A stretch of DNA of 36,513 nucleotides from NCBI GenBank assembly GCA_945902255.1, contig CAMDMO010000001.1, forward strand, positions 1-36,513, read 5' to 3'. Within the stretch, counting starts at the first letter, position 1; every line of letters starts with the position of its first letter. A program made the position numbers and the translations under genes. This DNA comes from Rickettsia typhi (GTDB lineage: Bacteria; Pseudomonadota; Alphaproteobacteria; Rickettsiales; UBA1997). Below the pieces are notes generated by a model, which did not search any database, was not told where the DNA came from, and was given only the letters and a program-made list of their open reading frames with translations. Positions 276-27,886 of this stretch are shown here, piece after piece.

Positions 276-2162
276 TTAATTGCATATCTTTGTAATTTGA
301 TTTACCAAGTCAGGATTTAACAAGGTCGATATATCGCCTAAATTTTCGTCTTTTGTAACGATTTTTTTCAAAATTCGGCGCATAATTTTACCAGAACGAG
401 TTTTTGGTAAGTCGGGAACTATATAGATCTTATCTGGCTTTGCAATAGCGCCAATTTGATCTCTGATGATTTCTATTATTTCATTTTCAATATTTTTTTG
501 CGGCATTTTTAAAATTACAAAGGCACAAATTGCCTCACCTTTAATTTCATGCGGCACGCCAATTACCGCAGATTCCACTACTGCCTCGTGTGAATTAATT
601 GCATTTTCAATTTCTGCCGTGCCTAAGCGATGTCCTGAGACTTTAATCACATCATCAACGCGACCAATTATGCGATAAAGTCCGTTTTCATCTCTAAATG
701 CGCCGTCTCCAGCAAAATAATGATTTGGAAAATTTTGATAATAAGTTTTAAAGAATTTTTCCCTATCGCCCCAAATTCCGCGCGCCATGCTTGGCCACGG
801 CTGTTTGAAGCATAAATTTCCAACTTTATTATTTTCTAAAATTTCATTTCCCTCATCATCAAATAAAACCGGAACAATTCCTGGAAGCGGTAATCCAGCA
901 TAAGAAGGCTTGCTTTGAGTTACTCCCGCCATTGAGGAAAGCATTATGCCACCAGTTTCAGTTTGCCACCAAGTATCAACAATTGGACATTTTTTTTGAC
1001 CAATTTTTTCAAAATACCATTGCCAAGCCTCTTCATTTATTGGCTCTCCAACGCTTCCCAAAACTTTTAGAGATGATAAATCATAGCCTTCAGCAAATTC
1101 ATCGCCCTTTTGCATCAAGCTTCTAATAGCGGTTGGCGCGGTATAAAAAATATTTACTTTATGTTTTTCAATTATTTGCCAAAATCGTGATGCCGTAGGA
1201 TAAGTTGGAATTCCTTCAAACATTACAATTGTTGTGCCACATAAAAGTGGACCATAAACTAAATAAGAATGTCCTGTGATCCAGCCAATATCAGCACTGC
1301 AGAAAAATATATCATCTTTTTTTGCCTGAAACACATTTTGAAAAGAATAAGCGGCGTAAGTCATATAGCCTGCGGTGCTATGTAAAATGCCCTTCGGCTT
1401 ACCGGTAGATCCAGAGGTGTAGAGAGTAAAAAGCGGATGCTCTGCATCAATTACTGATGCTTCACAGAATTTAGGAAATTTTTTTATTTCATCTTGCCAA
1501 ATTGTAATCTTAGCTTTGTTTGCGCTAATAAATTGCGCCTCTTCATCTCTGCGATATAAAATAATATTTTCAACTAACTCGCATTCTGCAATTGCTTCTT
1601 TGGCAATTTCAAAAAGTTCAATTTTTTTATCACCACGAAAAAGTAAATCGGAAGTGATTAATGTTTTTGCGCCAGAATCTTTGATTCTTCCAGCTAAAGC
1701 ATTGGCAGAAAATCCGGCAAAAACCACCGAATGAACCGCGCCAATTCTAGCGCAAGCAAGCATTGCAACTATGGCTTGCGGAATCATTGGCATATAAATA
1801 ACAACTCGATCACCATATTTTATGCCGCTTGCAAGTAGTAAATTAGCGAATTGACAGGTTTGTTCAAAAAGTTGTTTATAGGTAATATTTTGGCTTTTTT
1901 CACTTGGGTTATTCGCCTCCCAGATTATAGCAATTTTATCGCTGGGCTCACTTAAATAGCGATCTAAACAGTTATAAGTTATATTAGTTTTTCCATCTTC
2001 AAACCACGCAATTTCTCCACGCGATAAATCACAATTCATAATTTCTTTTGACTTATGAAACCAAAAGAAATTATCAATAATTTCACCCCAAAAACTTTTT
2101 GGATCAGCAATTGATGCTTGATATTGCTGGTTGTAATCGCTTTTTGATTTTATGTGAAACAT
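276..2162 (-). CDS. acs: acetyl-CoA synthetase (AMP-forming)
   Basis: 628-aa ORF with the AMP-binding motif [11 protein letters not shown] and a C-terminal [11 protein letters not shown] motif. Length and overall pattern are typical of Acs. ATG at 2160-2162, 5 nt after the cysE stop. Confidence 0.9.
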
Positions 2163-2167
2163 ATTTA

Positions 2168-2698
2168 TTAAATATAATAATCAATTTCATGCTTCTTTTT
2201 CTTAACTTCTTTTGCAATTTCTGCAACCATAACTTTATTTGCATCTAAATCTTCAATTATGATTGCGCCCGGTCCAACTTTAGCCCCTTCACCAATTACA
2301 ATTGGACCTAAAATTTTTGCTCCCGCGCCAATTACCACATCATTTTCGATTGTTGGATGGCGTTTAATTTTAGCAATTGATCTGCCGCCCAAAGTAACGC
2401 CTTGGTAAATTGTAACATTATCTCCAATCACTGCGGTTTCGCCAATTACAACACCAAAACCGTGATCAATAAATAAATTTTTACCAATTTTTACTTTGGG
2501 ATGAATTTCAATTCCAGTTAAAATTCTGCTAATATGGGCAATTAAACGCGGTAAAATTGGCACATTTTTTTTTACCAAAAAATGACTAATTCTATGAAAT
2601 AAAACCGCGTGAACTCCCGGATAGCAAAGAATTATCTCTAGATAACCATTTGCCGCCGGATCTTTCTTTTTTATATTTTCAAGAAATTCTATTTTCAT
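2168..2698 (-). CDS. cysE: serine O-acetyltransferase (short form)
   Basis: 176 aa with a left-handed beta-helix hexapeptide region ([44 protein letters not shown]) and an N-terminal DPA...LCYPG motif typical of CysE. It begins 2 nt after the cysK stop. Confidence 0.85.
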
Positions 2699-2700
2699 TA

Positions 2701-3633
2701 TTATCCTGTAATATGCTCAAATAACACCGAAGATAAATAGCGCTCGCCATATGATGCCAAAATAAATACTATTAACTTTCCTGCATTTTCTGGTCTTTTA
2801 GCAATTTCTAAAGCGGCATAAACAGCGGCACCTGAAGAAATTCCGGATAAAATACCTTCTTTTAGTGCTAAAGCTCTAGCATTTGCAATTGCATCTTCAT
2901 TTGAAACGGTAAAAATTTCGTCAATCAAACTAGTATCCAAAATTGATGGAATGAAGCCAGCGCCAATTCCTTGAATTTTGTGAGGACCCGCTTGACCACC
3001 AGATAAAACTGGACTTGCTGAAGGTTCAACCGCAACAATTTTAAGATTTGGATTTCTTTTCTTTAACACCGAAGCAATACCTGTAATGGTTCCTCCAGTT
3101 CCAACGCCAGAAACTAAAATATCAATTTTACCATCAGTATCGCGCCAAATTTCTTCTGCGGTAGTTTTTTGATGAATTTCCACATTTGCTTGATTAGAAA
3201 ATTGTTGCAAAATTACTGAATCTTTAATTTCAGCTTTAAGCTCTTCAGCTCTTGCAATTGCGCCTTTCATACCTTTTGCGCCTTCAGTTAAAACCAATTC
3301 CGCACCATAGGCTTTAAGTAATTTACGACGCTCTAGCGACATGGTTTCTGGCATAGTTAAAATCAATCTATAACCTTTAATTGCAGCAACAAAAGCTAGG
3401 GCAATTCCAGTGTTTCCCGAAGTTGGTTCAATTAAAACTGTTTTTCCAGGCGTAATTAAACCTTGTTTTTCCGCTGCTTCAACCATGGCAGAACCAGCTC
3501 TATCTTTAACTGAATTAGTTGGATTATAATATTCCAATTTTGCCACTACCGTAGCCTTTGATTGATTCATACGATTAATTTGAACTAGCGGCGTATTGCC
3601 AACTAACTCGATTAGATTTTTTGCTATTTTCAT
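2701..3633 (-). CDS. cysK: cysteine synthase A (O-acetylserine sulfhydrylase)
   Basis: 310 aa with a PLP-lysine region NPTNSVKDR, then [12 protein letters not shown] and [10 protein letters not shown] loops. A strong AGGAG sits upstream of the ATG at 3631-3633. Confidence 0.92.
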
Positions 3634-3661: not shown

Positions 3662-3709
3662 GAAAAGGGGTCAGACCCCTTTTCTAAAAAAGGGGTCTGA
3701 CCCCTTTTT
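3662..3709. repeat. REP-like palindromic doublet, copy 1 (GAAAAGGGGTC-A-GACCCCTTTTC, then AAAAAGGGGTC-T-GACCCCTTTTT)
   Basis: Read directly from the sequence. There are two perfect about 23-nt palindromes. The 13-nt cores are reverse complements of each other, so the whole doublet is also a palindrome. It fills the cysN-cysK spacer. The same doublet recurs at 5091-5136. Confidence 0.85.
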
Positions 3710-3710
3710 G

Positions 3711-5072
3711 TTAAATCGTGAAATCGATATTTTTATTACCGAAATATTTTTTAACCAATTGCGATAATTCTAGTAAAAATTCCTCTTGTTGATCCTTAGC
3801 CTTATCTTGTTTCGGCAGGAAATTTGAAATCACACCACATGCCACCGTTTCATTGTTATTTTTATCAATTAATAAAAATGAACCAGTGTTTTTATTGCTT
3901 TTAAATAAATCAAAAGCAGTTTCTTGCGAAATTGATAAATTTACATTAGCAATTTGATTTAAAATAATTGTTTCATGCTGATATTGCTTAGGATCATCAA
4001 CATTGGCTAAATTGTTAATATCAATAATGTGATTAATATTATTCACCTTAGCGCGCAAATAATTATGGTTAATTTTAATCAAATATTCTTTTGATTCTTT
4101 TGTGATAAATTCATCCGCACTGAACCAAATTAAGTAAGAGCTGAAGTGATTAGCAAAATATGGGCGATTGTCAGAATTAACCACCAAACCACCGCGATCT
4201 AAGTCAACATCACGATCTAAAACAATTGAAATTGAACTGCCAAAATTTGCATTTTTAGCTTCTTTTTCTGAGTGAATAATTTTAGTAATTTTAGCCGATT
4301 CTTTTGCCGGATAAACCATAATCTCTTCACCAACTCTAAGATCTCCACTAGATAAGAGTCCTTGATAATATCTTTTATTTTCGTGCTTTGCCAAACCTTG
4401 CACTTGAAAACGCGTTAATTCTTGGCTTTGCGGCTTGGTTTCAACTTCTAATAAATAATCGATAATTGTTTTACCGCTATACCAAGAAATTTTATTACTT
4501 TTTTCTACAATATTATCACCAAGCATTGCAACTATTGGCACGAAATAAATATTTTCAAAACCTAAATCAGCAGTTTTTTCTAAATAAGTTTTACGAATAT
4601 TATCAAAAACATCGTAATCAAAATTCACTAAATCCATTTTATTAACCGCTAAGATCACATTTTTTATTCCAAAAAGATGTGCAATATAACTATGTCTAAT
4701 GGTTTGGGTTTTTACACCTTTAGTTGCATCAACCAAAATAATTATAATATCACTATTTGCTGCAGCCACCGCCATATTTCTAGTATATTGCTCATGCCCT
4801 GGAGCATCTGCAATAATGAATTTTTTACCTCTATGAGAAAAATAACGGTAAGCAACATCGATAGTAATTTTTTGCGCTCTTTCCGAAGTTAGACCATCTA
4901 AAAAAAGTGAAAAATCTAGGTCGCCATCAAATGATTTATCGGTTGATTTTTTTACCTCTTCAATTTGATCTTGATAAAGTGAATCAGTGTCATGAAGCAG
5001 CCTTCCAATTAGAGTAGACTTGCCATCATCAACATTTCCTGCAGTTAAAAATTTTATAATTTCTTGTGACAT
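3711..5072 (-). CDS. cysN: sulfate adenylyltransferase subunit 1 (GTPase subunit); no fused APS kinase
   Basis: Track ORF 3711..5198. I place the start at ATG 5070-5072 ([26 protein letters not shown]), which puts the G1 motif at the N-terminus as in CysN. DAPGH and NKMD motifs are present. The 42 upstream codons of the track ORF only translate the palindromic repeat (GVRPLFNKRGLTPF). Confidence 0.88.
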
Positions 5073-5090
5073 GTTTTTTTCAATTTTATT

Positions 5091-5136
5091 AAAAGGGGTC
5101 AGACCCCTTTTGTTGAAAAGGGGTCTGACCCCTTTT
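5091..5136. repeat. REP-like palindromic doublet, copy 2 (AAAAGGGGTC-A-GACCCCTTTT gttg AAAAGGGGTC-T-GACCCCTTTT)
   Basis: Read directly from the sequence. It has the same two units in the same order as 3662-3709. It fills the 70-nt spacer between the cysD stop (5143) and the cysN start (5072). Confidence 0.85.
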
Positions 5137-5142
5137 GCGGTT

Positions 5143-6039
5143 TTAGAAATATCCTTCCAATTTTTTCTTTTCCATCGAGCCAGACTGATCTTTATCAATT
5201 AGTCTTCCTTGCCTTTCTGAAAATTTACTTTTTTTCATTTCCGCAATAATTTCATCAATATTACTTGCCTCAGATTCAATGGCGCCACTGAGTGGATAAC
5301 ATCCTAAAGTTCTAAATCTAACTTTTTTAATTTCTGGTTTTTGTCCATTTAAAGGCAGTCGGTTATCATCGACCATAATTAGAGTTCCATCGCGCTCAAC
5401 CACTGGTCTTGGTGCAGAAAAATAAAGCGGCACAACCTCAATTTCTCTTTCTTTAATATATTCCCAAACATCAAGCTCGGTCCAGTTCGATAAAGGAAAA
5501 ACGCGCATCGATTCTTTATCGTTAATTTTGCAATTAAATAAATTAAACATTTCTGGCTTTTGCATTTTTGGATCCCAGTTATGAAACTGATTTCTAAAAG
5601 AAAAAATTCTCTCTTTAGCGCGAGATTTTTCTTCGTCCCTGCGCGCGCCACCCAAAGCCATATCAAAACCATGCTCGTCAAGAGCTTGTCTTAAACCTTC
5701 GGTTTTCATAATATCGGTGTAAACCTTGCGCTGTAAACCAAATGGCGTAATATCTTCTTTTGCGCCACGAGGATTAACATGAACAATCAGATCAAGTCCA
5801 AATTTTTCTGCCTGATATTTTCTAAATTTAATCATCTCTTGAAATTTCCAAGTTGTATCAACATGCAAAACCTTTACTGGCGGTTTTGCTGGATAAAAAC
5901 TTTTAAGCAAAAGATGTAATAAAACTGAAGAATCTTTACCAATTGAATAAAGCAAAACCGGATTTTTAAATTCCGCCACCGCTTCGCGAATTATGTAAAT
6001 AGACTCTTCTTCAAGCATTTGTAAATATTTGCTAACCAT
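5143..6039 (-). CDS. cysD: sulfate adenylyltransferase subunit 2
   Basis: 298 aa. The N-terminus [16 protein letters not shown]...[17 protein letters not shown] (PP-loop SxGKDS) matches CysD. The ATG at 6037-6039 overlaps the cysI stop by 8 nt. Confidence 0.92.
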
Positions 6040-7669
6040 AAATCTCCCTTAAAATAAAATCGCCAAAAGTCTCGTTGGCAGCGCGTTTTTTAGAATAATC
6101 GCCTAAAAATTTATCCAACTCATTTAGAATATCGCCCTCTTCTAAATCTTCTTTGTAAAGCCTGTTTAAGCGATTTCCTAAGCGATCTCCAGCCAAATAA
6201 AGATTGTATTTTCCAAGCGCTTTTCCAACAAGACCAATTTCTGCCAAATAAGGTCTGCCACAACCATTTGGGCAACCCGTCATTCTTATGCTAATTGGAT
6301 CTTGGCTTAAGTTATATTTTTCCAAAATCACTTCGATTTTTGTAATTAAACTTGGTAAATATCTTTGCGCTTCCGCTAAAGCTAACGAGCAAGTGTTAAG
6401 CGCCACGCAAGCAATAGAATCGGCAAGAATTGGTGAAATGCCGTCATTATTAATATTATATTTTTGGAAGATTTTTTCGACCTGCGATTTATTTTTTTCA
6501 ACAATATCAGAAATAATAATATTTTGATTATTGGTGAAACGAAAATTCGCTAAATTATTTTGCGCAACTTCTCTAAAAGCTTTTTTTAATTGTTGTTTTT
6601 GACTATCGTAAACTCGACCATTTTCAACAAATAAACCATAATGATAATTACCAAGATAATCTTGCTTCCAGCCATAATAATCGCCGCGTTTATCGAATTT
6701 AAATTCTTTGGTTTTTTCCAATTTAAATCCGAGTCTTTTTTCAAATTCTTCCACAAACCATGCAACTCCATATTTTGCGATAGTATATTTGAAGCGAGAC
6801 TGTTTTCGCTCTTCGCGATTTCCAAAATCTCTTTGAATAGTTAAAATTTGGTAAGTCGCATCTAAAATTTTATCTTTTGCGATAAATCCAATTACATCGC
6901 CAAGTCTTGGATAAGTGTCCGCATTGCCATGAGTGGCGCCCATTCCGCCGCCAACCGAAACATTAAATCCTTGCAAAACACCATTTTGAATTATCGCAAT
7001 TAAACCAATATCGTGAGCGTAAACATCCACATCATTATCCGGCGGAATTGCAATTACGATTTTAAATTTTCTTGGCAAATAAGTTTTACCATAAAGCGGC
7101 TCCACCTCTTCAACGCCGGCAATTTGCTCTTGATCCAACCAAACCTCGTGATAAGCATTGGTTTTTGGCAATAAATATTCGCTGATTTTTTTACTAAATT
7201 CATAAACTTCATCATAAGCAGAATTTTGCGCAATCGCCACTGAAGCCATAACATTGCGATTTACATCGCCGCAAGCCGCAATTGAATCAAGTCCGTGATT
7301 CATAAACCAAGCAATTGTTGGTTTTAATTTTGACTTAATCACGCCATGTAATTGCACGGTTTGTCTGGTAGTAATTTTTATCGTTCCCGTTGAATTGTGT
7401 TCAGCAATTTCATCAATTGCCAACCATTCTTTTGCAGAAATTTTTCCGCCAGCAATTCTTAAGCGAAGCATAAAAGAGTAAAGTTTTTCTAACTTTTTTT
7501 CTGCCCTCTCCTCTCTGCGATCACGATCATCTTGCTGATAAATTCCGTGAAATTTTATCACCGTTTGATCATCTTCCGAAATTGCTCCCGTAATAGGATC
7601 AGCAAGGCTTTGTGCTAGAGTTCCGCGAAGATAATTACTATTTATTTTAATTTGTTCTACTTTGCTCAT
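6032..7669 (-). CDS. cysI: sulfite reductase (NADPH) hemoprotein beta-component
   Basis: [20 protein letters not shown], the Cys cluster [15 protein letters not shown] and [19 protein letters not shown] follow E. coli CysI along the whole length, compared from memory. I prefer the ATG at 7667-7669 (MSKVEQIK), 16 nt after the cysJ stop. The track start at 7720 would overlap cysJ by 35 nt. Confidence 0.9.
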
Positions 7670-7685
7670 TTTCTTGTTAATTAAA

Positions 7686-9131
7686 TTAATAAACATCTCG
7701 CAAATATCTATCTTGCTCAATCAAGTTTGATAAATATTCTTGCGCCTGTTCTCTATTTTTATTTCCCTCATTTTCTATTACCTCAAGCAGTGAATTTTCA
7801 ACATCGCGCGCCATGTTTTCTTTATCGCCGCAAACATAAAAATAAGCGCCATTTTCTAACCACTGATATAATTCTTTGGCATTTTCTTTGATGCGATCTT
7901 GCACATAAATTTTTTCTTTTTGATCTCTTGAGAAAGCCACCGACATCTTGGAAAGCAGCCCAGATTCTAAATGCGCTTGCCATTCAATCTGATATAAAAA
8001 ATCACTTTGAAAATTTCTTTCACCAAAAAATAACCAATTTTTTCCACTCGCATTGCGATAATTTCTTTCTGCTAAAAAGGCGCGAAATGGCGCAACTCCT
8101 GTTCCAGGACCAACCATTATAATATCTTGATCGTCTTTAGGTAATTTAAATTGGCGATTTTTGCTAATGTAAAATTTAATTTTAGAGCCAACTTGCAAAT
8201 GCGCCAAATGGCCAGAAAATAAGCCTTCAACCTCTTTTCCATCTTTATCAATATAGCGCAAAACCGAAACCGTTAAATGAACTTCGCTACCATGCTCATT
8301 TAATGAAGAAGCAATAGAATAAAGGCGTGGGGTAATTTTTCCCTCAACTTTCAACTCTTCATTTTCAAATAAAATTCCAACTGAATCACCAGCTTCATAA
8401 TGCAAATCATCCGCGCCAGATGCAGCAATTTCAATATGCCTAGTTTCTTTTGAAGAACCCACATCATTAAGATTAATGTTAGCTAAAATTTCACCAACAA
8501 ATTGATTTTGTCCAGATTTGGCCGGTTTAATATTTTGAACCGAAGCAATTGCGCCGCCTTCTGCAAAAGCTGCTGAAACTTGGGCATAAACTTGATTAAT
8601 TGAATTTTCAAAATCTAAATCTAAATCAATTCTTGGCGCTAATTTTTTTGCATTTAATTTTTCTAACCTTAAATCAATATCTTTTCCTGATTGGCAAAAT
8701 AGCGGGTAGTTAGTGTCTCCAAGCGCAATTACAAAATAATTTAAATTTTTTAAATCCAATTCATTTTGATTAATATATTCGTAAAATTTTTTTCCAGATT
8801 GTGGAATTTCACCTTCGCCATGAGTGCTTGCAATTATCAGTAAATTTTTTTCTTTCACTAAATCGGTAAAGCGATATTGCTCAACTGATTTTAACTTAGA
8901 ATTAGAGCCTTCTGCCTTTAATTTTTTAGCTATTTCTGAAGCTAAAAATTTTGAATTTCCAGTTTCCGTGATATATAAGATTGTTAAATCTTTAACTATT
9001 TTATTATTAGAAATCGCAGATATTTCTTCCGCTACAAGACCAGCTAAATATCCGCTAACCCAAGCAATTTCAGGCTTGGTAAGGCTTGTAATAAATTGAT
9101 CTAATATTTGTTTTTTTTCTTTATTTAGCAT
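7686..9131 (-). CDS. cysJ: sulfite reductase flavoprotein alpha-component, short form (flavodoxin plus FNR-like module)
   Basis: 481 aa. It has the N-terminal AWVSGYLAG motif, flavodoxin-like LTILYITETGNSK, the FAD motif RLYSIASS, NADPH motifs MVGPGTGVAPFRAF and YFYVCGD, and the C-terminal RYLRDVY. Confidence 0.85.
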   Translation of the reverse strand: MLNKEKKQILDQFITSLTKPEIAWVSGYLAGLVAEEISAISNNKIVKDLTILYITETGNSKFLASEIAKKLKAEGSNSKLKSVEQYRFTDLVKEKNLLIIASTHGEGEIPQSGKKFYEYINQNELDLKNLNYFVIALGDTNYPLFCQSGKDIDLRLEKLNAKKLAPRIDLDLDFENSINQVYAQVSAAFAEGGAIASVQNIKPAKSGQNQFVGEILANINLNDVGSSKETRHIEIAASGADDLHYEAGDSVGILFENEELKVEGKITPRLYSIASSLNEHGSEVHLTVSVLRYIDKDGKEVEGLFSGHLAHLQVGSKIKFYISKNRQFKLPKDDQDIIMVGPGTGVAPFRAFLAERNYRNASGKNWLFFGERNFQSDFLYQIEWQAHLESGLLSKMSVAFSRDQKEKIYVQDRIKENAKELYQWLENGAYFYVCGDKENMARDVENSLLEVIENEGNKNREQAQEYLSNLIEQDRYLRDVY

Positions 9132-9222
9132 ATTTCATTTATTTAACTTACAATTTATACGATATTAAAACTTATGCCGCGACGAGATGGACTGGCTTAC
9201 GCAACCGCGCCCTCACCTTTAT

Positions 9223-9915
9223 TTACGCCTTATGTAACCCACATTCTTTTTTCAAATCACTTTCCCACCACCACCTGCCCGCTCTCACATCTTCATCCGA
9301 TGCAACAGCTCTAGTGCAAGGTTCGCAACCAATTGACTTATAGCCTTTTTTATAAAGCTCATTAAAGGGCACGCGATTTTTTTCAATATATTCCCAAACC
9401 TCTTTTTCGCTTAACTCAAGCAAAGGATAAAATTTAATAAGCGCAAAACCTTCGTCTTTTTCAAAAAAATCTTTTTGACCACGAAGTGAAGAATGCTCTT
9501 TTCTAACCCCGCTAATCCAAAGATTTTTTCTTTTTAAAGCGCGCTTCAAAGGCTCTACCTTCCTTATTTGGCAACATTTTAAACGCAATTCTAGATTTTT
9601 ATAAAAAGGATTGATCCCTTCTTGTGAAATAAATTCTTTTAACTCTTTTTCAGCGGGATAATAAGCAGTAATTTTTAGCGGATATTTATCTAAACTATTT
9701 TGCCATACTTCATAAGTTTCTTTCGGCAAGCGCCCTGTATCAAGAGTAAAAACCGTAATTGGCAATTTATTTTGAGCGATAAAATCAAAAATCACCTGAT
9801 CTTCAATGCTAAAACTGGTGGAAAAAACAATATCTTCAAAAACAGACGAAACAAATTTTAGCCTCTCTTGCCAATTTAAATTTTTTGTTTGCTTCAATAG
9901 TTGACTAATTTCCAT
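9223..9915 (-). CDS. cysH: adenylylsulfate (APS)/PAPS reductase, Fe-S (APS-reductase) type
   Basis: C-terminal KKECGLH, plus the CC pair (LKCCQIRKVEPL) and CxxC (IGCEPCT) that mark the iron-sulfur APS-reductase class. I place the start at ATG 9913-9915 (MEISQLL), which is preceded by GGAGGTGAGC. The track start at 9948 lacks a comparable RBS. Confidence 0.88.
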   Translation of the reverse strand: MEISQLLKQTKNLNWQERLKFVSSVFEDIVFSTSFSIEDQVIFDFIAQNKLPITVFTLDTGRLPKETYEVWQNSLDKYPLKITAYYPAEKELKEFISQEGINPFYKNLELRLKCCQIRKVEPLKRALKRKNLWISGVRKEHSSLRGQKDFFEKDEGFALIKFYPLLELSEKEVWEYIEKNRVPFNELYKKGYKSIGCEPCTRAVASDEDVRAGRWWWESDLKKECGLHKA

Positions 9916-11323
9916 GCTCACCTCCAATTTTTTGAAAATAAACACCATCTAAATTTTCTTCGCGCCATTTATGACCTAAATTTACTACATCACCAATAAT
10001 AGCAAGCGATGGGGAGGTAAATTTTTTCTCACCAAATTCTTTAGAAAAATTTTGAATTGAGCTAATATAAGTTTTTTGATAAGGTGTTGTCGCTTGCTCA
10101 ATTATCGCAATTGGTGTATCAGATTTTTTACCAAATTTAACTAGATTTTGCGTGATTTCTAACAAGTTATGAGATGACATATAAAACACTAAGCTATCAT
10201 CACTTTTCGCCAAATCTCTCCAATAATCTTCGCTCTCAAAATCTTGTTTATACATCGCTAAAAATCTTACCGATTTATTTGAATTTCTTGAAGTTAGAGG
10301 AATTCCAGCATAAGCTGCTGCACCAGATGCCGCAGTAATTCCCGGTACTACTTGATATGGAATATTTAAATCAATAATTGCGTCAATTTCTTCACCCAAA
10401 TGAGCAAAAATTCCAGCATCTCCACCTTTTAGGCGCGCCACCACATTGCCTTTTAGCGCATATTCTCTAATCAATAAATTAATTTCTTCTTGTTGATATA
10501 AATGCTTATCGCGGGTTTTTCCTACATTAATTTTTATCGCATCTTTTCTTGCATAATTTAAAATTTCCGGCGAAACCAAGCGGTCATAAAGCACAATATC
10601 AGCTTTTGACAATAACTTAATTGCTTTAAGAGTAATTAATTCTGGATCACCCGGTCCGGCACCAATAAAATAAACCGCCGCCTCTTTTTTATTTTGAGAA
10701 TTTTCTAATTTATCTTCTAATAATTTTTGTGCTTTTTGCAAATTTCCAATCAACACTTCTTCAGCGATTACGCCATCAATTACTTCTTGCCAAAACAATC
10801 TTCTCGCCTGCAAATTGTTTAATTTTTCTTTTACTAATTTTTTATTTTGCGCCAAAAATTCACTTAATAATGGTAAATTTTCTGGCAATAATTTTTGCAA
10901 TCTTTGTTTTAAAACTCGCGCCAAAACAGGCGAAACCCCTGAAGTTCCAATAGATAAAATAACTTCACCGCGCTTAATATTTGCACCAAAAATAAAATTA
11001 GAAATATCTGGATCATCCACTGCATTAATTAGCTTATTTTGCAATTTAGCATCTTGTGAAATTTCTTGATTCACCTTTTTATCATCAGTTGCCGCAACAA
11101 TAATATCAACTTGTGATAAATATTTTTTATCGTAAGAATCTTTGATTAATTTAATACGATTTTCTTTTGCTAAATTCTCAATTTGAGGATTAATTTTTTC
11201 ACCGATCACCAAAATATTATCGCTAAACTCTAAAATGGTATCTAACTTCGCTAAAGCAATATTTCCAGCTCCAACAACTAAAAACCTAATGTTACTAACA
11301 TTTAAAAATAATGGAAAATACAT
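9905..11323 (-). CDS. cysG: siroheme synthase (precorrin-2 dehydrogenase/ferrochelatase plus uroporphyrinogen-III C-methyltransferase)
   Basis: 472 aa with an N-terminal Rossmann motif FLVVGAGNIA and a C-terminal SUMT domain (VYFIGAGPGDPELITLKA, GGDAGIFAHLGEE). It overlaps the cysH start by 11 nt. Confidence 0.9.
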   Translation of the reverse strand: MYFPLFLNVSNIRFLVVGAGNIALAKLDTILEFSDNILVIGEKINPQIENLAKENRIKLIKDSYDKKYLSQVDIIVAATDDKKVNQEISQDAKLQNKLINAVDDPDISNFIFGANIKRGEVILSIGTSGVSPVLARVLKQRLQKLLPENLPLLSEFLAQNKKLVKEKLNNLQARRLFWQEVIDGVIAEEVLIGNLQKAQKLLEDKLENSQNKKEAAVYFIGAGPGDPELITLKAIKLLSKADIVLYDRLVSPEILNYARKDAIKINVGKTRDKHLYQQEEINLLIREYALKGNVVARLKGGDAGIFAHLGEEIDAIIDLNIPYQVVPGITAASGAAAYAGIPLTSRNSNKSVRFLAMYKQDFESEDYWRDLAKSDDSLVFYMSSHNLLEITQNLVKFGKKSDTPIAIIEQATTPYQKTYISSIQNFSKEFGEKKFTSPSLAIIGDVVNLGHKWREENLDGVYFQKIGGEHGN

Positions 11324-11379
11324 ATTTGATGAACTGCAAATTTAAAATAAAAACAAGAAGAAAAGACAACTAACAACAA

Positions 11380-11415
11380 TTAGCAGCAACAACAGCAAGC
11401 AGCAAAAGACGGCAT
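11380..11415 (-). CDS. candidate leader peptide MPSFAACCCCC (five consecutive Cys codons) upstream of cysG
   Basis: Own reading of the minus strand: ATG CCG TCT TTT GCT GCT TGC TGT TGT TGC TGC TAA. The stop lies 56 nt upstream of the cysG ATG. The ORF is too short for the ORF track. There is only a weak SD-like GGG 8-10 nt upstream of the ATG. Confidence 0.45.
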   Translation of the reverse strand: MPSFAACCCCC

Positions 11416-11465
11416 GAACAACCCAGCGTGAGAAGCTAGGTTAACAGCATTTTTATGATTTTTGT

Positions 11466-11495
11466 ATGATAAAAAACTATCCACTTTTTTTACAA
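11466..11495 (-). promoter_or_regulatory. candidate sigma70-type promoter of the cys operon (TTGTAA - 18 nt - TATCAT)
   Basis: On the minus strand the -35 is at 11490-11495 and the -10 is at 11466-11471. This would put the TSS about 45 nt upstream of the poly-Cys sORF. It is a pattern match only, in AT-rich DNA. Confidence 0.3.
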
Positions 11496-11609
11496 AAAAA
11501 TTAAGGAAGAGCCAGATTGTGCCTCTTTTTCTTTAAAGAATCAACTAATTATTTTTTCTTATACCATTCCAACTAATCCAAGTGTCGGCAAATAAAAGTG
11601 ATGTTCGCC

Positions 11610-12380
11610 TTAATCCACCGCAAAACCACTCTCAACTAAGATCTTTCTAGCTTTATCGGTTTTTAAAAATTTTAAGAATTCTCGCGCAATTTCCATATTA
11701 TCTCCAGCAATTACCAGCGCTTGATAAAAAATATTCTGACCCTTTGTTTTAGATAAAATTTTAAGATCTGACTTACTTTTAATCTGACTTGCAAATAATA
11801 TAGCGTAGTATTCAGGATTGTCTTTGATGATAGTAATAATCGGAGTTTTATCCTCCACCAATTTATTTAAAAGCTTTAAATCACTAAAGTTAAATTTACT
11901 AATAAAATCATTGCCAAATTTACCAGAAGAATTTCCTTGATGATCTAAGATTAGAGTGGATTTATTTTGATCTAAAATTTTTATTGCCTCTTCGAATGGC
12001 ACTTTTCTTTCCAATAAAACTGGTAAAATTTTTGGATTATCCTTAGAGGTAACAAGTACCATCTCATCGCGCGCAATAAAACTAACATTATAAACATCCA
12101 CTACACCTTTTTGACGCAGAGCCTCGACCAATCCAGAGTGAGCTGAAATAAAAACATCAGCGGGCTCTCCAGAATCAACTTCATTCATTAAATCTAGAGC
12201 TGAATTAAAATTTATTGAGACAATTACATTATTTTTTTGCGAATAAAGACGAGCGATTTTAGTCAAAGCCTGCGCCATGCTTGGCTCAGCAAAAACAGTA
12301 ATGTTTCTGCTGGAAGAAGCGAAGGAGGCTTTGCTAAAAAAAACTATCGCAAAAAATAGGACGAAAAATTTTTTTAACAT
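11610..12380 (-). CDS. periplasmic oxyanion-binding protein, ModA (molybdate/tungstate) family-like
   Basis: 256 aa with a signal peptide (MLKKFFVLFFAIVFFSKASFA). ITVFAEPSMAQAL...ADVFISA resembles the ModA pattern ITVFAAASL...ADLFISA. Its start abuts the nrdB stop (TAA then ATG). No permease or ATPase gene is adjacent. Confidence 0.55.
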   Translation of the reverse strand: MLKKFFVLFFAIVFFSKASFASSSRNITVFAEPSMAQALTKIARLYSQKNNVIVSINFNSALDLMNEVDSGEPADVFISAHSGLVEALRQKGVVDVYNVSFIARDEMVLVTSKDNPKILPVLLERKVPFEEAIKILDQNKSTLILDHQGNSSGKFGNDFISKFNFSDLKLLNKLVEDKTPIITIIKDNPEYYAILFASQIKSKSDLKILSKTKGQNIFYQALVIAGDNMEIAREFLKFLKTDKARKILVESGFAVD

Positions 12381-13376
12381 TTATATAACCAACATTTTTT
12401 GTCTATCTTGATCAATATCTTCAAACACTTCTTCCCAAGTTCCCGTAGTAGAAGCCTTACTATATTCAGTAACTCTATTTTCAAAAAAGTTGGTATGTTC
12501 AACACCATTTAAAATCTCGTCAAGCCATGGAAGTGGATTAATATCAATCATGTAAATATCTTTTAATCCCAATTGATTTAAGCGTCTATCTGCAATATAG
12601 CGAATATAACGCTTAACTTCGCGTGAAGTTAGGCCTTCAACATTTCCCATTTCAAAAGCAAGATCGATAAAAGCATCTTCGTAATGCACAATAGTTGCGC
12701 AAGCTTCGTAAAGACGACCTTTCAAATCTTCATCCCAAACTTCGGAGTTTTCTTGCACAAAGGTGCGAAAAAGTTTGATGATAGAATTAGTGTGCAAAGT
12801 CTCATCACGCACTGACCAAGCAATGATTTGACCCATTCCCTTCATTTTTCCAAATCTTTGAAAATTTAACAAAATAGCAAAAGAAGCGAATAGTTGCAAA
12901 CCTTCTGTAAACCCACCAAACACCGCCAAAGTAGTCGCTATATCTTTATTGGTTTTAATACCAAATTTATGCATATAGTCATATTTATCTTTCATTTCCT
13001 TATATTTCATGAAAGCCTGATATTCGGTTTCCGGCATGCCAATTGTATCAAGTAAATGAGAATAAGCGGCAATGTGAACAGTTTCCATATTTGAAAATGC
13101 AGATAACATCATTTGCACTTCGATTGGCTTAAAAACTTGTGAATAATGCTTCATATAGCAGTTATTCACTTCAATATCAGCCTGAGTAAAAAAGCGAAAA
13201 ATTTGCGATAATAAATTTTTTTCACCACTAGTTAGATTATGTTTCCAATCCCTAACATCGTCAGCTAAAGGAACTTCCTCTGGAAGCCAGTGAATTTGTT
13301 GTTGTTTTAACCAAGCATCATATGCCCAAGGATAGCTAAATGGCTTGTAAATTGGTTTCGCATCAAGAAGAGACAT
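12381..13376 (-). CDS. nrdB: ribonucleoside-diphosphate reductase beta subunit (class I)
   Basis: 331 aa. It shows a ferritin-like di-iron pattern (EVNNCYMKHY, ETVHIAAYSHL, EGLQLFASF, RDETLHT), and its length is typical of NrdB. Confidence 0.9.
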   Translation of the reverse strand: MSLLDAKPIYKPFSYPWAYDAWLKQQQIHWLPEEVPLADDVRDWKHNLTSGEKNLLSQIFRFFTQADIEVNNCYMKHYSQVFKPIEVQMMLSAFSNMETVHIAAYSHLLDTIGMPETEYQAFMKYKEMKDKYDYMHKFGIKTNKDIATTLAVFGGFTEGLQLFASFAILLNFQRFGKMKGMGQIIAWSVRDETLHTNSIIKLFRTFVQENSEVWDEDLKGRLYEACATIVHYEDAFIDLAFEMGNVEGLTSREVKRYIRYIADRRLNQLGLKDIYMIDINPLPWLDEILNGVEHTNFFENRVTEYSKASTTGTWEEVFEDIDQDRQKMLVI

Positions 13377-27034: not shown

Positions 27035-27055
27035 AACCATGCACACCAACTTACT
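27035..27055 (+). repeat. direct repeat, left copy (AACCATGCACACCaACtTaCT), containing the R start codon
   Basis: 13/13 identical and then 18/21 identical to 28882-28902. A TTAAAAAATC 10-mer also recurs (26990-26999 and 28870-28879). Confidence 0.7.
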
Positions 27056-27884
27056 CATAGCAATAAAAAATATAGTAAACAACCCCATATCAAATCCAAC
27101 ATCTCATAGCGCTTCATTAAATCGCATAAATAATACCGGAGAAACTTTAGAGCTTTACATAAAAGATATTTTTTGTAACTCACTTCGCATTACAGAGCAA
27201 AATAAAAAAACAGAAATTTTCTCAAATTATTTTTCTTATATTGGAAATCAAAATAATCCACCAGATCTCATAATAAAAAATGGAGATGCGATTGAAATAA
27301 AAAAAATTGAAAATTCTCATTCTGGAATCGCTTTAAATAGCTCTTACCCAAAAGATAAATTATATTCTGACAGCTCAATGATCACAAAAAGCTGTAAAGA
27401 ATGTGAAGATTGGGAAGAAAAAGATCTTCTTTACGCGATAGGATTCATTAAAAATAAAGTATTAAAATCTCTTTGGTTTGTTTACGGAGATTGCTACGCT
27501 GCAGACAAAGAAACTTACGAAAGAATTAAGAAAAAAATCTCTTCTGGCTTAAATGATATATCAAATATAGAGCTCTCAGAAACAAATGAGCTTGGAAGAG
27601 TGAATAAAGTCGATCCTCTTGGAATAACTTATCTGCGCATAAGAGGAATGTGGCACATAGAAAATCCAAAAAAAGTTTTTGACTATGTTTGCAAAGAATC
27701 AGAATCAAATTTTACCGTAAATGCATTAATTTTGCGAAATAAGTATGATTCATTTCCTGAAAACGACAAAAGAGAAATAGAACAAATTAAAAAATCAGGA
27801 TTTACCATTCAAGATGTCAAGATTAAGTCCCCAAACAATCCAGCAAAAATGCTTGATGCAAAACTAATTTCATTCAATAACTAA
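27039..27884 (+). CDS. type II restriction endonuclease, NgoPII-like (probable GGCC)
   Basis: 281 aa, immediately upstream (2-nt gap) of a HaeIII-like m5C methyltransferase. Blocks NGDAIEIKKIE, ELGRVNKVDPLGITYLRIRGMWHIENP and IKIKSPNNPA match my recollection of R.NgoPII. No database search was possible. Confidence 0.65.
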   Translation: MHTNLLIAIKNIVNNPISNPTSHSASLNRINNTGETLELYIKDIFCNSLRITEQNKKTEIFSNYFSYIGNQNNPPDLIIKNGDAIEIKKIENSHSGIALNSSYPKDKLYSDSSMITKSCKECEDWEEKDLLYAIGFIKNKVLKSLWFVYGDCYAADKETYERIKKKISSGLNDISNIELSETNELGRVNKVDPLGITYLRIRGMWHIENPKKVFDYVCKESESNFTVNALILRNKYDSFPENDKREIEQIKKSGFTIQDVKIKSPNNPAKMLDAKLISFNN

Positions 27885-27886
27885 AT

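What the first reader, a model, noticed from the sequence alone, without database searches (positions are those of the whole stretch)
11324..11495. Five-cysteine leader peptide (MPSFAACCCCC) in front of the sulfate-assimilation / cysteine operon
The 286-nt leader of the 10-gene cys array contains an ORF on the minus strand: ATG CCG TCT TTT GCT GCT TGC TGT TGT TGC TGC TAA (11415 down to 11380). Five of its 11 sense codons are consecutive Cys codons, and it ends 56 nt before the cysG ATG. A run of codons for the end-product amino acid in a short upstream ORF is the defining signature of leader-peptide attenuation, as in trpL, hisL, leuL, pheL, thrL and ilvL. As I recall, polycysteine short ORFs acting as cysteine-responsive attenuators have been reported in mycobacteria. 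I know of no such report for alphaproteobacteria or endosymbiont-like genomes. The architecture is unusual. The stretch between the sORF stop and cysG is G/U-rich and almost C-free (UUGUUGUUAGUUGUCUUUUCUUCUUGUUUUUAUUUU), and I could not find a classical terminator/antiterminator pair by eye. If it is functional, the mechanism may therefore differ from the textbook one, for example through translation coupling, RBS occlusion or polar effects.
Basis: partly seen in the sequence, partly recalled or inferred. Interest (0 to 1): 0.85.

Follow-up and report, generated by a model that had tools for sequence, protein, structure and literature searches.

The report
Cysteine-sensing leader ORF before cys operon
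A tiny upstream reading frame ending in five cysteine codons sits in front of the sulfate-assimilation/cysteine operon of an uncultured Rickettsiales-like bacterium; it is conserved in all 13 related lineages examined, so it is very probably a ribosome-based cysteine sensor of a kind so far tested only in mycobacteria.

Summary
An 11-codon ORF (MPSFAACCCCC, minus strand 11415-11380) ends 56 nt before cysG, the first gene of cysG-H-J-I-D-N(-K-E-acs).

It is not chance:
- It is the only run of 4 or more TGY codons in 36.5 kb (expected 0.06; fewer than 0.004 for a run of 5).
- All 13 distinct lineages examined in which the CysG relative (52-100% identity) heads, or recently headed, a cys operon carry a short ORF with 3-7 consecutive Cys codons. 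The run lies 0-1 codon from the stop in 12 of 13, and the stop lies 42-108 nt before cysG.
- The rest of the peptide and the spacer have diverged beyond alignment.
- A relative whose cysG stands alone lacks the ORF.

This matches the signature of leader-ORF attenuation that senses charged tRNA-Cys.

The output step is unresolved:
- No canonical terminator/antiterminator pair, Rfam match or globally stable fold was found.
- The spacer is exceptionally U-rich, and weak hairpins overlap the stop codon.
- In the closer lineages the junction before the Cys run is specifically complementary to a segment just upstream of the cysG AUG (partner-swap P about 0.01). The window's own pairing, GCUGC:GCAGU, is weak.

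The closest tested analogue is the mycobacterial polycysteine sORF attenuator. This one is not leaderless, sits in an SD-poor, AT-rich setting and is probably of independent origin. I rate it a new variant of a known kind.

The parts
11466..11495 (-). Promoter-like site: -35 TTGTAA (11495-11490), 18-nt spacer, -10 TATCAT (11471-11466). The predicted TSS is near 11459, giving a 5' UTR of about 43 nt before the sORF.
   Evidence: A comparable TTGACW-N16-18-TAnnnT lies 172-281 nt upstream of cysG in 9 of 13 leaders. This is a consensus match only. The same scan finds as many sites in shuffled sequence window-wide.
11420..11442 (-). 5' UTR hairpin AACCUAGC-uucucac-GCUGGGUU, ending 4 nt before the sORF AUG. 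Its role is unknown; it could be a pause or stabilising hairpin.
   Evidence: Present in the MFE and centroid structures. Conservation was not tested rigorously.
11380..11415 (-). Leader sORF encoding MPSFAACCCCC followed by a stop codon (11 sense codons + TAA).
   Evidence: Positional equivalents exist in 12 other lineages.
11383..11397 (-). Run of five consecutive Cys codons (TGC TGT TGT TGC TGC). This is the proposed sensor of charged tRNA-Cys.
   Evidence: the only run of >=4 TGY in the window, with 0.063 expected; across the 13 leaders the runs contain 25 TGC and 46 TGT codons, and the third position varies only between C and T.
11369..11384 (-). Weak hairpin GCUAAU-uguu-GUUAGU. Its 5' arm is the end of the last Cys codon plus the stop codon, and it is followed by a U-rich tail. 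With a 2-bp extension the predicted dG is -4.9 kcal/mol.
   Evidence: Local fold z=-2.38, p=0.003 in the window. As a class this is only suggestive: 9 of 13 leaders have a stem >=5 bp against 5.0 expected (P about 0.02).
11324..11379 (-). Spacer of 56 nt that is U-rich (59% U, 12% G, 11% C) and predicted to be largely unstructured, lying between the sORF stop and the cysG AUG.
   Evidence: composition; 38-63% U in the 11 leaders measured. (the most U-rich upstream region among the window's 29 genes, median 34%, and in the top 0.1% of all 56-nt windows).
11333..11337 (-). GCAGU motif at -14..-10 of cysG. It is complementary to GCUGC in the sORF (11403-11399, the Ala-Ala codons, or 11387-11383, Cys4-Cys5). 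It is the candidate 3' arm of a helix that a ribosome stalled on the Cys run would prevent.
   Evidence: GCAGU is kept at -15..-9 in L004 and L005 (two copies in L005) although the rest of the spacer has diverged. In the window the duplex is only 5 bp (E=-7.2, z=-1.08, p=0.18).
9905..11323 (-). cysG (siroheme synthase), the first gene of the regulated unit.
   Evidence: NF007922, 482 bits.
3711..9948 (-). cysH (9948-9223), cysJ (9131-7686), cysI (7720-6032), cysD (6039-5143) and cysN (5198-3711). These genes are tightly packed or overlapping and are presumed to be co-transcribed with cysG.
3663..3708 (-). Strong GC-rich palindrome (20-bp stem) between cysN and cysK. It looks like a terminator and may end the cysG-led transcription unit.
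276..3633 (-). cysK (3633-2701), cysE (2698-2168) and acs (2162-276). These may form a separate unit downstream of the palindrome.
   Evidence: cysK has one of the few strong SD sequences in the window.

Best explanation
The 11-codon ORF is a leader (sensor) ORF that reports the supply of charged tRNA-Cys to the cysG-led sulfate-assimilation operon.

**Proposed sequence of events**
- Transcription starts at a promoter about 43 nt upstream of the sORF, and ribosomes translate the sORF.
- When Cys-tRNA is plentiful, the ribosome runs through the five terminal Cys codons, terminates at UAA and leaves. The end of the sORF is then free to pair with downstream RNA.
- In the window there are two candidate pairings. 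One is the weak hairpin over the last Cys codon and the stop. The other is GCUGC in the sORF with GCAGU at -14..-10 of cysG.
- This default state gives low cysG expression.
- When Cys-tRNA is scarce, a ribosome stalls on the Cys run. It covers that segment and about 15 nt downstream, the pairing cannot form, and cysG and the genes behind it are expressed.
- I favour an effect on translation initiation of cysG, as in the mycobacterial polycysteine sORFs, over transcription termination.

**Shown here**
- The sORF, its position and its improbability by chance.
- Conservation of a Cys run adjacent to the stop codon in 13 lineages.
- The U-rich spacer.
- The complementarity statistics.

**Inferred, not shown**
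- Translation of the sORF.
- Stalling on the Cys codons.
- Cysteine responsiveness.
- Which output step is controlled.

**My probabilities**
- About 0.85 that this is a Cys-tRNA-sensing leader ORF.
- About 0.4 that the output is unmasking of the cysG start region.
For: **1. Signature.** Five consecutive codons for the pathway's end product lie in a short ORF 56 nt before the first biosynthetic gene.

**2. Not chance.** The window has one run of >=4 TGY against 0.063 expected. There are only 2 such runs in 333 kb (both strands) of unrelated cysG loci. None of 78 distant cysG upstream regions has >=4.

**3. Conservation with drift.** All 13 lineages keep a run of 3-7 Cys codons. The run lies 0-1 codon from the stop in 12 of 13, and the stop is 42-108 nt from cysG. 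Peptide length (11 to about 43 codons), N-terminal sequence, start codon and spacer sequence all differ.

| Lineage | CysG identity | Peptide end |
|---|---|---|
| window | 100% | ...CCCCC* |
| L004 | 80% | ...DCCCC* |
| L005 | 75% | ...DCCCCCA* |
| L007 | 70% | ...ICCCCCN* |
| L009 | 69% | ...NCCCCC* |
| L096 | 68% | ...TCCCCC* |
| L091 | 66% | ...TCCCCCC* |
| L092 | 63% | ...SCCCCCCC* |
| L093 | 61% | ...ACCCCPALSSFI* |
| L097 | 60% | ...FCCCCRCCC* |
| L002 | 56% | ...CCVACCC* |
| L094 | 54% | ...CCCYVNFCCCCCN* |
| L095 | 52% | ...MCCCCCCC* |

**4. Codon-like variation.** Within the runs the third position varies only C/T (25 TGC, 46 TGT), and the frame always ends in a stop. This argues for a translated frame rather than a DNA or RNA repeat.

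**5. Link to the operon.** L001 (59% identity, cysG alone) has no sORF.

**6. Output step.** The junction before the Cys run is specifically complementary to a segment 3-27 nt upstream of the cysG AUG.
- Mean z is -0.99 over 13 leaders and -1.96 in the 7 closer ones.
- Own pairs average -5.98 kcal/mol against -4.56 for swapped pairs, permutation P=0.0098.
- The arm sequences differ between subclades: RCUGC:GCAGU, GACUUG:CAAGUC, AUGACUUG:UAAGUCAU, GUUGUC:GACAAU.
- GCAGU stays at -15..-9 in the window, L004 and L005 although the spacer has otherwise diverged.

**7. Precedent.** In M. smegmatis a C-terminal run of eight Cys codons, 97 nt before the next gene, was shown by mutation to pair with the pre-start region. 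Ribosome stalling relieves that pairing (10.1101/834739).
Against: - **The window's own pairing is weak.** It is 5 bp, E=-7.2 kcal/mol, z=-1.08, p=0.18. With the broader test z=-0.86.
- **Modelling shows no general unmasking.** Thermodynamic folding with a ribosome footprint imposed gives a mean unpaired probability of the cysG start region of 0.57 free, 0.57 stalled and 0.58 at the stop. In the window it rises only from 0.48 to 0.60.
- **Distant lineages lack the complementarity.** L092, L093, L094, L095 and L002 show none.
- **There is no SD to sequester.** Most genes in the window, cysG included, lack one.
- **The whole leader is not unusually structured.** z=-0.17.
- **No experimental data.** Nothing bears on the TSS, sORF translation or cysteine response. 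The promoter call is a consensus match of a kind that is equally frequent in shuffled sequence.
- **Partial phylogenetic dependence.** The lineages are not fully independent, and the partner-swap test could be helped by lineage-specific composition.
Confidence: 0.6

Rival explanations
1. The sensor is the same, but the output is intrinsic transcription termination. The weak hairpin made of the last Cys codon plus the stop codon (or a separate hairpin further down in lineages with longer spacers), followed by the U-rich tract, terminates transcription by default. A ribosome stalled on the Cys run covers the 5' arm and lets RNA polymerase read through.
For: - Hairpin plus U-rich tail between the Cys run and cysG occurs in 9 of 11 leaders, against 4.1 expected (26 hits against 7.7).
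- The local fold of stop-12..stop+30 has mean z=-1.39 over 11 leaders. In the window z=-2.38, p=0.003.
- In the window, L009, L091, L095, L096, L097 and L002 the 5' arm contains the stop codon and the 3' arm matches it (GCUAAU/GUUAGU, GUUGUUAG/CUAGCAGU, UGCUA/UAGCG, UGUUAA/UUAACA, GCUAG/CUAGC).
- The spacer U content is extreme.
- Lineages with longer spacers have better terminator-like hairpins, for example L092 UCCUAG-cuu-CUAGGG followed by a U run.
Against: - The standard scan finds no terminator in the window leader.
- The hairpin is weak (-4.9 kcal/mol, 1-2 G-C pairs). Convincing terminators elsewhere in this window have GC-rich stems of 9-20 bp.
- With a permissive stem test, enrichment at the stop codon is modest: 9 of 13 against 5.0 expected, P about 0.02.
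- No antiterminator alternative appears. The downstream hairpins persist in every modelled ribosome state.
- A ribosome stalled at the first codons of a 7-Cys run would not reach the stop-codon hairpin.
- The timing is awkward, because a terminating ribosome covers the hairpin too.
Confidence: 0.2
2. The sensor is the same, but the output is Rho-dependent termination, as in the E. coli tna operon. After normal termination of the sORF, the naked, unstructured, pyrimidine-rich and G-poor spacer lets Rho load and stop transcription early in cysG. A ribosome stalled at the very end of the sORF blocks Rho's access.
For: - The Cys run is adjacent to the stop codon in 12 of 13 lineages. That places the stalled ribosome directly against the spacer.
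- The spacers measured are unstructured, G-poor (6-14%) and pyrimidine-rich, and they lack a canonical terminator.
- The same idea was proposed for the terminator-less Cys leader ORFs of Actinobacteria (PMC1262725).
Against: - The spacer is U-rich rather than C-rich (C 8-24%; 11% in the window, about equal to G).
- At 42-108 nt it is short for a rut site.
- A stalled ribosome masks only about 15 nt of it.
- The presence and specificity of Rho in this organism were not examined.
Confidence: 0.12
3. The sORF encodes a functional Cys-rich micropeptide (for example metal- or redox-active) that is merely co-located with the cys operon, and it has no cis-regulatory role.
For: - The ORF and its Cys residues are conserved.
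- Small Cys-rich peptides do exist in nature (general knowledge).
Against: - Only the Cys run is conserved. Peptide length ranges from 11 to about 43 residues, the N-terminal sequence is unalignable, and the number of Cys varies from 3 to 7.
- The position immediately upstream of the first biosynthetic gene and the run's adjacency to the stop codon are what is conserved.
- The sORF is absent where cysG is not followed by cys genes (L001).
Confidence: 0.04
4. This is a chance low-complexity (TGY/GTT-type) repeat or an untranslated DNA/RNA motif, for example a regulator binding site, and not a translated sensor.
For: - The leader is low-complexity and G/U-rich around the run.
- One other 5xTGY run in the fetched DNA (L095:1165) proved to be an out-of-frame artefact of Ala/Val codons.
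Against: - The expected number of such runs is far below one.
- In all 13 lineages the run is in a frame that opens with a start codon and closes with a stop, which follows within 0-1 codons in 12 of 13.
- Third positions vary only C/T, and TGC and TGT are mixed rather than forming a pure repeat.
Confidence: 0.03

Closest known systems
Mycobacterial polycysteine leaderless sORF attenuators (Ms5788A / Rv0815A and the 'Cys ribulon'; Canestrari et al. 2020, 10.1101/834739 = Mol Microbiol 114:93)
   Same: - A short ORF with a run of consecutive Cys codons at its C-terminal end lies directly upstream of a cysteine/sulfur-metabolism operon.
- A spacer of tens of nucleotides separates the sORF from the next gene (97 nt there, 56 nt here).
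- There is no classical terminator/antiterminator pair.
- The Cys-tract region is complementary to the segment just before the downstream start codon.
   Different: - The sORF here is not leaderless (predicted 5' UTR about 43 nt).
- The genome is AT-rich and SD-poor, so there is no SD to sequester.
- The predicted duplex is short and weak (5 bp in the window), not a near-complete stable duplex.
- The spacer is U-rich and unstructured.
- The phylum differs and there is no sequence similarity, so the origin is probably independent.
- The regulated unit is cysG-H-J-I-D-N.
- Function here is inferred, not tested.
Predicted Cys-run leader peptides of Actinobacteria (Mycobacterium spp., Propionibacterium acnes cys operon, Bifidobacterium longum cbs; Seliverstov et al. 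2005, PMC1262725)
   Same: - The leader ORFs have runs of Cys codons near the stop codon.
- They lie upstream of cysteine genes.
- No conserved terminator hairpins are present.
   Different: - Those are in Actinobacteria with GC-rich leaders.
- Rho-dependence was suggested there on the basis of C-rich boxes, which are absent here.
Classical leader-peptide transcription attenuators of Proteobacteria (trpL, hisL, leuL, thrL, pheL, ilvL)
   Same: A short upstream ORF is enriched in codons for the end-product amino acid, and a ribosome acts as sensor of charged tRNA.
   Different: - No recognisable terminator, antiterminator or 1:2 pause-hairpin set was found.
- The regulatory codons are the last codons of the ORF.
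- No Rfam leader family matches.
uORFC-8-2 motif upstream of cysS in Rhodobacterales (Brewer et al. 2021, PMC8632094)
   Same: It is an alphaproteobacterial uORF whose conserved Cys codons are proposed to sense Cys-tRNA.
   Different: - It has only two tandem Cys codons, at positions 14-15, embedded in a conserved stem.
- It has a clear intrinsic terminator.
- It controls the tRNA synthetase gene rather than the biosynthetic operon.
- It belongs to a different order.
tnaC-tnaA leader of E. coli (Rho-dependent attenuation relieved by a ribosome stalled at the end of the leader ORF)
   Same: The regulatory stall is at the extreme 3' end of the leader ORF, next to an unstructured spacer without an intrinsic terminator.
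   Different: - In tna the stall is caused by free tryptophan acting with the nascent peptide, not by codon starvation.
- The tna spacer is longer and carries C-rich rut/boxA elements.

Membership tests
Amino-acid-sensing leader ORF attenuators (general class) | Short ORF in the 5' leader of a biosynthetic operon, enriched in consecutive codons for that pathway's end product. | tested here: met
   Five consecutive Cys codons among 11, ending 56 nt before cysG of the cysteine/sulfate-assimilation operon. Chance expectation is <0.07 per window.
Amino-acid-sensing leader ORF attenuators (general class) | Conservation of the regulatory codon run in orthologous leaders, with drift elsewhere. | tested here: met
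   13 of 13 lineages in which the CysG relative (52-100% identity) heads, or recently headed, a cys operon. Absent in L001 and L011.
Amino-acid-sensing leader ORF attenuators (general class) | The sORF is transcribed and translated, and expression of the operon responds to supply of the amino acid through the codon run. | not testable with these tools
   There is only a consensus promoter match upstream. No expression data are available.
Classical transcription attenuators (trpL/hisL type) | Intrinsic terminator (G+C-rich hairpin plus U tract) between the leader ORF and the first structural gene. | tested here: not met
   The scan finds none in 11200-11750. Only a weak hairpin (-4.9 kcal/mol) with a U-rich tail is present, whereas real-looking terminators in the window have GC-rich stems of 9-20 bp.
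Classical transcription attenuators (trpL/hisL type) | Mutually exclusive antiterminator structure selected by ribosome position. | tested here: not met
   Constrained folding with a ribosome stalled, at the stop, or absent shows no switch of downstream hairpins in any of 13 leaders. The whole-leader fold z-score is -0.17.
Mycobacterial polycysteine LL-sORF attenuators | Leaderless sORF (transcript begins at the AUG/GUG). | tested here: inconclusive
   The predicted -10 ends 50 nt upstream of the ATG. Other lineages also show predicted UTRs of 25-60 nt. These are consensus predictions only, and no TSS data exist.
Mycobacterial polycysteine LL-sORF attenuators | At least two consecutive Cys codons in an sORF upstream of a cysteine-related operon. 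| tested here: met
Mycobacterial polycysteine LL-sORF attenuators | The Cys tract base-pairs stably with the SD or pre-start region of the downstream gene. | tested here: inconclusive
   - Window: GCUGC:GCAGU, 5 bp at -14..-10, p=0.18.
- Significant in L004, L009, L091, L096 and L097, and by partner swap overall (P=0.0098).
- Absent in five distant lineages.
- No SD is present.
- Modelled start-site accessibility is unchanged by ribosome position.
Rfam leader / cis-regulatory RNA families | Match to a curated covariance model. | tested here: not met
   No hit at gathering thresholds in the window except a tRNA. Only chance-level hits (E>1) occur in 11250-11650.

The most novel reading that the evidence does not exclude
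The Cys-run sORF works through an output that is neither a terminator/antiterminator switch nor SD sequestration. In this SD-poor organism the exceptionally U-rich, unstructured spacer would be the platform on which either 30S/S1 (for cysG initiation) or Rho loads. A ribosome parked on the terminal Cys codons, directly abutting that platform, would control access to it. That would be a minimal, structure-free form of amino-acid attenuation, evolved independently of the actinobacterial one.
Probability: 0.2. Interest if true: 0.75.

Novelty: new variant of a known kind. Interest (0 to 1): 0.6.

Why it matters
- **Convergent evolution.** If confirmed, ribosome-mediated cysteine sensing by a polycysteine leader ORF would extend from Actinobacteria to Proteobacteria. 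Until now it has been tested only in mycobacteria. Here it would appear in a clade of uncultured, AT-rich, Rickettsiales-like bacteria, showing that the same simple solution evolved twice.
- **Annotation.** It offers a sequence-only marker for the regulated cys operon in genomes where no regulator is known. It also explains a conserved unannotated ORF that gene callers miss.
- **Mechanism.** The leader lacks a canonical terminator, an SD and any stable duplex. It is therefore a compact test case for how a stalled ribosome can control a downstream gene with almost no RNA structure.
- **Application.** It is a candidate minimal cysteine-responsive part for synthetic biology.

Tried and rejected
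- **Metagenome scan.** The scan with a CysG alignment returned only distant homologues (36-44% identity), because the most conserved peptide patterns are universal. These were usable only as a background set. Most are not followed by cysH, so their lack of an sORF says little.
- **General RBS-unmasking model.** Folding with imposed ribosome footprints gave no systematic change in cysG start-site accessibility.
- **Broad Cys-run/TIR duplex test.** It was not significant overall (mean z=-0.33). Only the narrower junction test and the partner-swap test gave support.
- **Stop-codon hairpin.** By eye it looked strongly conserved with compensatory changes. A permissive stem test against shuffled U-rich spacers reduced this to P about 0.02, so I do not rest the mechanism on it.
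- **Multiple alignment of leaders.** Only the Cys run and the cysG start align, so RNAalifold or a covariance model would not be informative and were not pursued.
- **Second Cys run in L095 (position 1165).** This is an out-of-frame artefact within an Ala/Val-rich coding region.
- **Second Cys leader for the divergent cysDN in L093.** None was found.
- **Rfam at permissive threshold.** Only chance-level hits appeared.
- **One contig look-up (P0104).** It returned no DNA.
Full report
**Observation**

- Reading the minus strand gives ATG CCG TCT TTT GCT GCT TGC TGT TGT TGC TGC TAA at 11415-11380. That is an 11-codon ORF, MPSFAACCCCC, whose last five codons are Cys (11397-11383).
- The stop ends 56 nt before the ATG of the next long ORF (11323).
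- NCBIfam identifies that ORF as siroheme synthase CysG. It is followed on the same strand by cysH, cysJ, cysI, cysD, cysN, cysK, cysE and acs.
- Upstream lies a modA-like binding-protein gene ending at 11610, so the intergenic leader is 286 nt. The coordinates and content of the finding are therefore correct.
- Minor corrections: I count eight cys genes plus acs, not ten genes. The spacer is U-rich (59% U, 12% G, 11% C) rather than G/U-rich and C-free.

**Chance**

- The run is the only stretch of four or more TGY codons on either strand of the 36.5-kb window. A first-order Markov model of the window expects 0.063 runs of >=4 and fewer than 0.004 of >=5.
- Cys makes up 1.0% of the residues in the window's ORFs.
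- In 333 kb of unrelated cysG loci there are two runs of >=4 on both strands together. None of 78 distant cysG upstream regions has one.

**Comparative evidence**

- Sources of loci: a genome scan, a protein search and twelve contig look-ups. Together they gave 13 distinct lineages whose CysG is 52-100% identical to the window's. In 12 of them cysG is followed by cysH, cysJ and cysI wherever the contig extends that far. In L094 an insertion sequence interrupts the array after a cysH fragment.
- Every one of these lineages has a short ORF upstream of cysG containing 3-7 consecutive Cys codons.
- The run is 0-1 codon from the stop in 12 of 13. The exception is L093, where eight codons follow the run. 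The stop lies 42-108 nt before cysG.
- Everything else drifts. Peptide length runs from 11 to about 43 codons. The likely start is ATG, GTG or TTG. The N-terminal sequences and the spacers cannot be aligned.
- Within the runs the third codon position varies only between C and T (25 TGC, 46 TGT), and the frame always closes with a stop. This is the pattern expected of a translated sensor, not of a DNA repeat or a functional peptide.
- Two natural controls point the same way. L001 (59% identity), where cysG is not followed by cys genes, has no such ORF. The nearest outgroup with cysG-cysH (L011, 44%) also lacks it.
- The organisms are uncultured alphaproteobacteria labelled Rickettsiales or Alphaproteobacteria by their depositors. 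The window also carries a VirB4-type gene and has 35% G+C.

**Anatomy of the leader**

- A sigma-70-like site (TTGTAA-18-TATCAT, 11495-11466) would start transcription about 43 nt before the sORF. It would exclude the in-frame GTG at 11484.
- Similar TTGACW-N16-18-TAnnnT sites precede the sORF in 9 of 13 leaders. Such consensus matches are as common in shuffled sequence, so this counts as weak evidence.
- A hairpin (11442-11420) precedes the sORF AUG.
- After the stop comes the most U-rich upstream region of any gene in the window: 59% against a median of 34%, in the top 0.1% of all 56-nt windows. U-richness is shared by the 11 leaders measured (38-63%).
- Most genes here, cysG included, have no Shine-Dalgarno sequence.

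**Mechanism tests: what was not found**

- No intrinsic terminator by the standard scan.
- No Rfam family at gathering or permissive thresholds.
- The leader is not unusually stable (z=-0.17).

**Mechanism tests: three ideas tried**

*(a) A hairpin at the stop codon plus a U tract acting as a terminator.*
- Weak hairpins with U-rich tails are enriched between the Cys run and cysG (9 of 11 leaders against 4.1 expected).
- Local folding just after the stop is more stable than in shuffles (mean z=-1.39; window z=-2.38).
- Against this, a direct test of stems containing the stop codon is only modest (9 of 13 against 5.0 expected, P about 0.02).
- The window's hairpin is weak (-4.9 kcal/mol), while convincing terminators elsewhere in the window have GC-rich stems of 9-20 bp.

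*(b) Sequestration of the cysG start region, relieved by a stalled ribosome.*
- Folding with ribosome footprints imposed shows no general change in accessibility (0.57, 0.57 and 0.58; window 0.48 to 0.60).
- However, the junction just before the Cys run is specifically complementary to a segment 3-27 nt upstream of the cysG AUG. Mean z is -0.99 over 13 leaders and -1.96 over the 7 closer ones. Own pairs beat swapped pairs (permutation P=0.0098).
- The arm sequences differ between subclades (RCUGC:GCAGU; GACUUG:CAAGUC; AUGACUUG:UAAGUCAU; GUUGUC:GACAAU).
- In the window the pair is GCUGC:GCAGU. GCAGU sits at -14..-10 of cysG and is conserved at that position in L004 and L005. It is only 5 bp (p=0.18).

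*(c) Rho loading on the naked pyrimidine-rich spacer, blocked by a ribosome stalled next to it.*
- This fits the position of the run at the very end of the ORF.
- It is not supported by C content.

**Comparison with what is known**

- Cys-run leader ORFs without terminators were predicted upstream of cys genes in Actinobacteria in 2005 (PMC1262725).
- One of them, Ms5788A of M. smegmatis, has eight C-terminal Cys codons and lies 97 nt before the next gene. Mutation and compensation showed that it acts by translational attenuation: the Cys tract pairs with the pre-start region, and a stalled ribosome prevents this (10.1101/834739).
- In Alphaproteobacteria a uORF with two Cys codons and a terminator has been described upstream of cysS in Rhodobacterales (PMC8632094).
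- Searches of the held literature found no report of a polycysteine leader ORF on a cysteine-biosynthetic operon in Proteobacteria or Rickettsiales.
- The element here shares the sensor design and overall layout with the mycobacterial case.
- It differs in several respects. It is apparently not leaderless. It sits in an SD-poor, AT-rich context. It has at best a short helix instead of a stable duplex, and a conspicuous U-rich spacer.
- It does not meet the defining structural features of classical trp/his-type attenuators.

**Verdict**

I give about 0.85 to the sensor role.
- The output mechanism remains open. I favour disruption of pairing between the end of the sORF and the cysG start region (about 0.4). 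Next come weak intrinsic termination (about 0.2) and Rho-dependent termination (about 0.12).
- All functional steps are inferred from sequence and conservation. None is shown experimentally.
- It is best classed as a new variant of a known kind. It is of moderate-to-good interest as an independent invention of polycysteine attenuation and as a possibly structure-minimal version of it.

Noticed in passing
window 3663-3708 (minus strand), between cysN and cysK: A strong GC-rich palindrome, AAAAGGGGTCAGACCCCTTTT-TTAG-AAAAGGGGTCTGACCCCTTTT (20-bp stem, 10 G-C pairs), followed by a T-rich tail. It looks like a bidirectional terminator inside the cys gene array, so cysG-N and cysK-E-acs may be separate transcription units.
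   Followed up: partly
window 11610-13376 (minus); also L004, L009, L091, L096: A ribonucleotide-reductase small-subunit gene, followed by an orphan modA-like SBP_bac_11 binding-protein gene, lies immediately upstream of the cys leader. No permease or ATPase genes are adjacent. This synteny is conserved in several relatives. Given its position, the binding protein might serve sulfate or thiosulfate rather than molybdate.
   Followed up: no
window, starts of all 29 ORFs: Most genes have no recognisable Shine-Dalgarno sequence. cysK (aaggag), cysD and cysE are among the few that do. The organism appears to rely largely on SD-independent initiation.
   Followed up: partly
L001 2250-2480: Upstream of the solitary cysG in this MAG (labelled 'Rickettsia typhi') there are GC-rich palindromic segments (for example GGAATGGGTCTCCTGACCCATTCC and GGTCGGGGTCTGGAGACCCTGACC). 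They are reminiscent of Rickettsia palindromic elements. There is no Cys sORF.
   Followed up: no
L094 3900-5587: cysG is followed by a 66-aa CysH fragment and then a DDE transposase. The cys operon therefore seems to have been interrupted by an insertion sequence, yet the Cys-run sORF (CCC...CCCCCN*) is still intact upstream.
   Followed up: no
L095 1099-1236: A second 5xTGY run lies in an alternative frame of an Ala/Val-rich segment (ACT GCT GTT GCT GCT GCA) of a 373-aa gene of unknown function. It is a false positive, which shows that Ala/Val-rich coding sequence can mimic Cys runs.
   Followed up: yes
L093 1-2500: In this lineage cysD and a cysN-cysC fusion are transcribed divergently from cysG and have no Cys leader ORF of their own. 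Here the Cys run is followed by eight more codons before the stop.
   Followed up: partly
window 32435-34138 (+): A 567-aa gene with a GINT1_N-like domain sits between rpsG and fusA, interrupting the usually contiguous rpsL-rpsG-fusA cluster.
   Followed up: no
window 27039-28873 (+): A complete NgoPII-type restriction endonuclease plus C-5 cytosine methyltransferase pair.
   Followed up: no
L007 about 2215-2250 and L009 about 2290-2330: The spacer between the -35 and -10 of the predicted cys promoters shares the motif AAAGTCGG(C/T)TTT in these two lineages. It might be a binding site for a regulator that overlaps the promoter. It was not seen in the other leaders.
   Followed up: no
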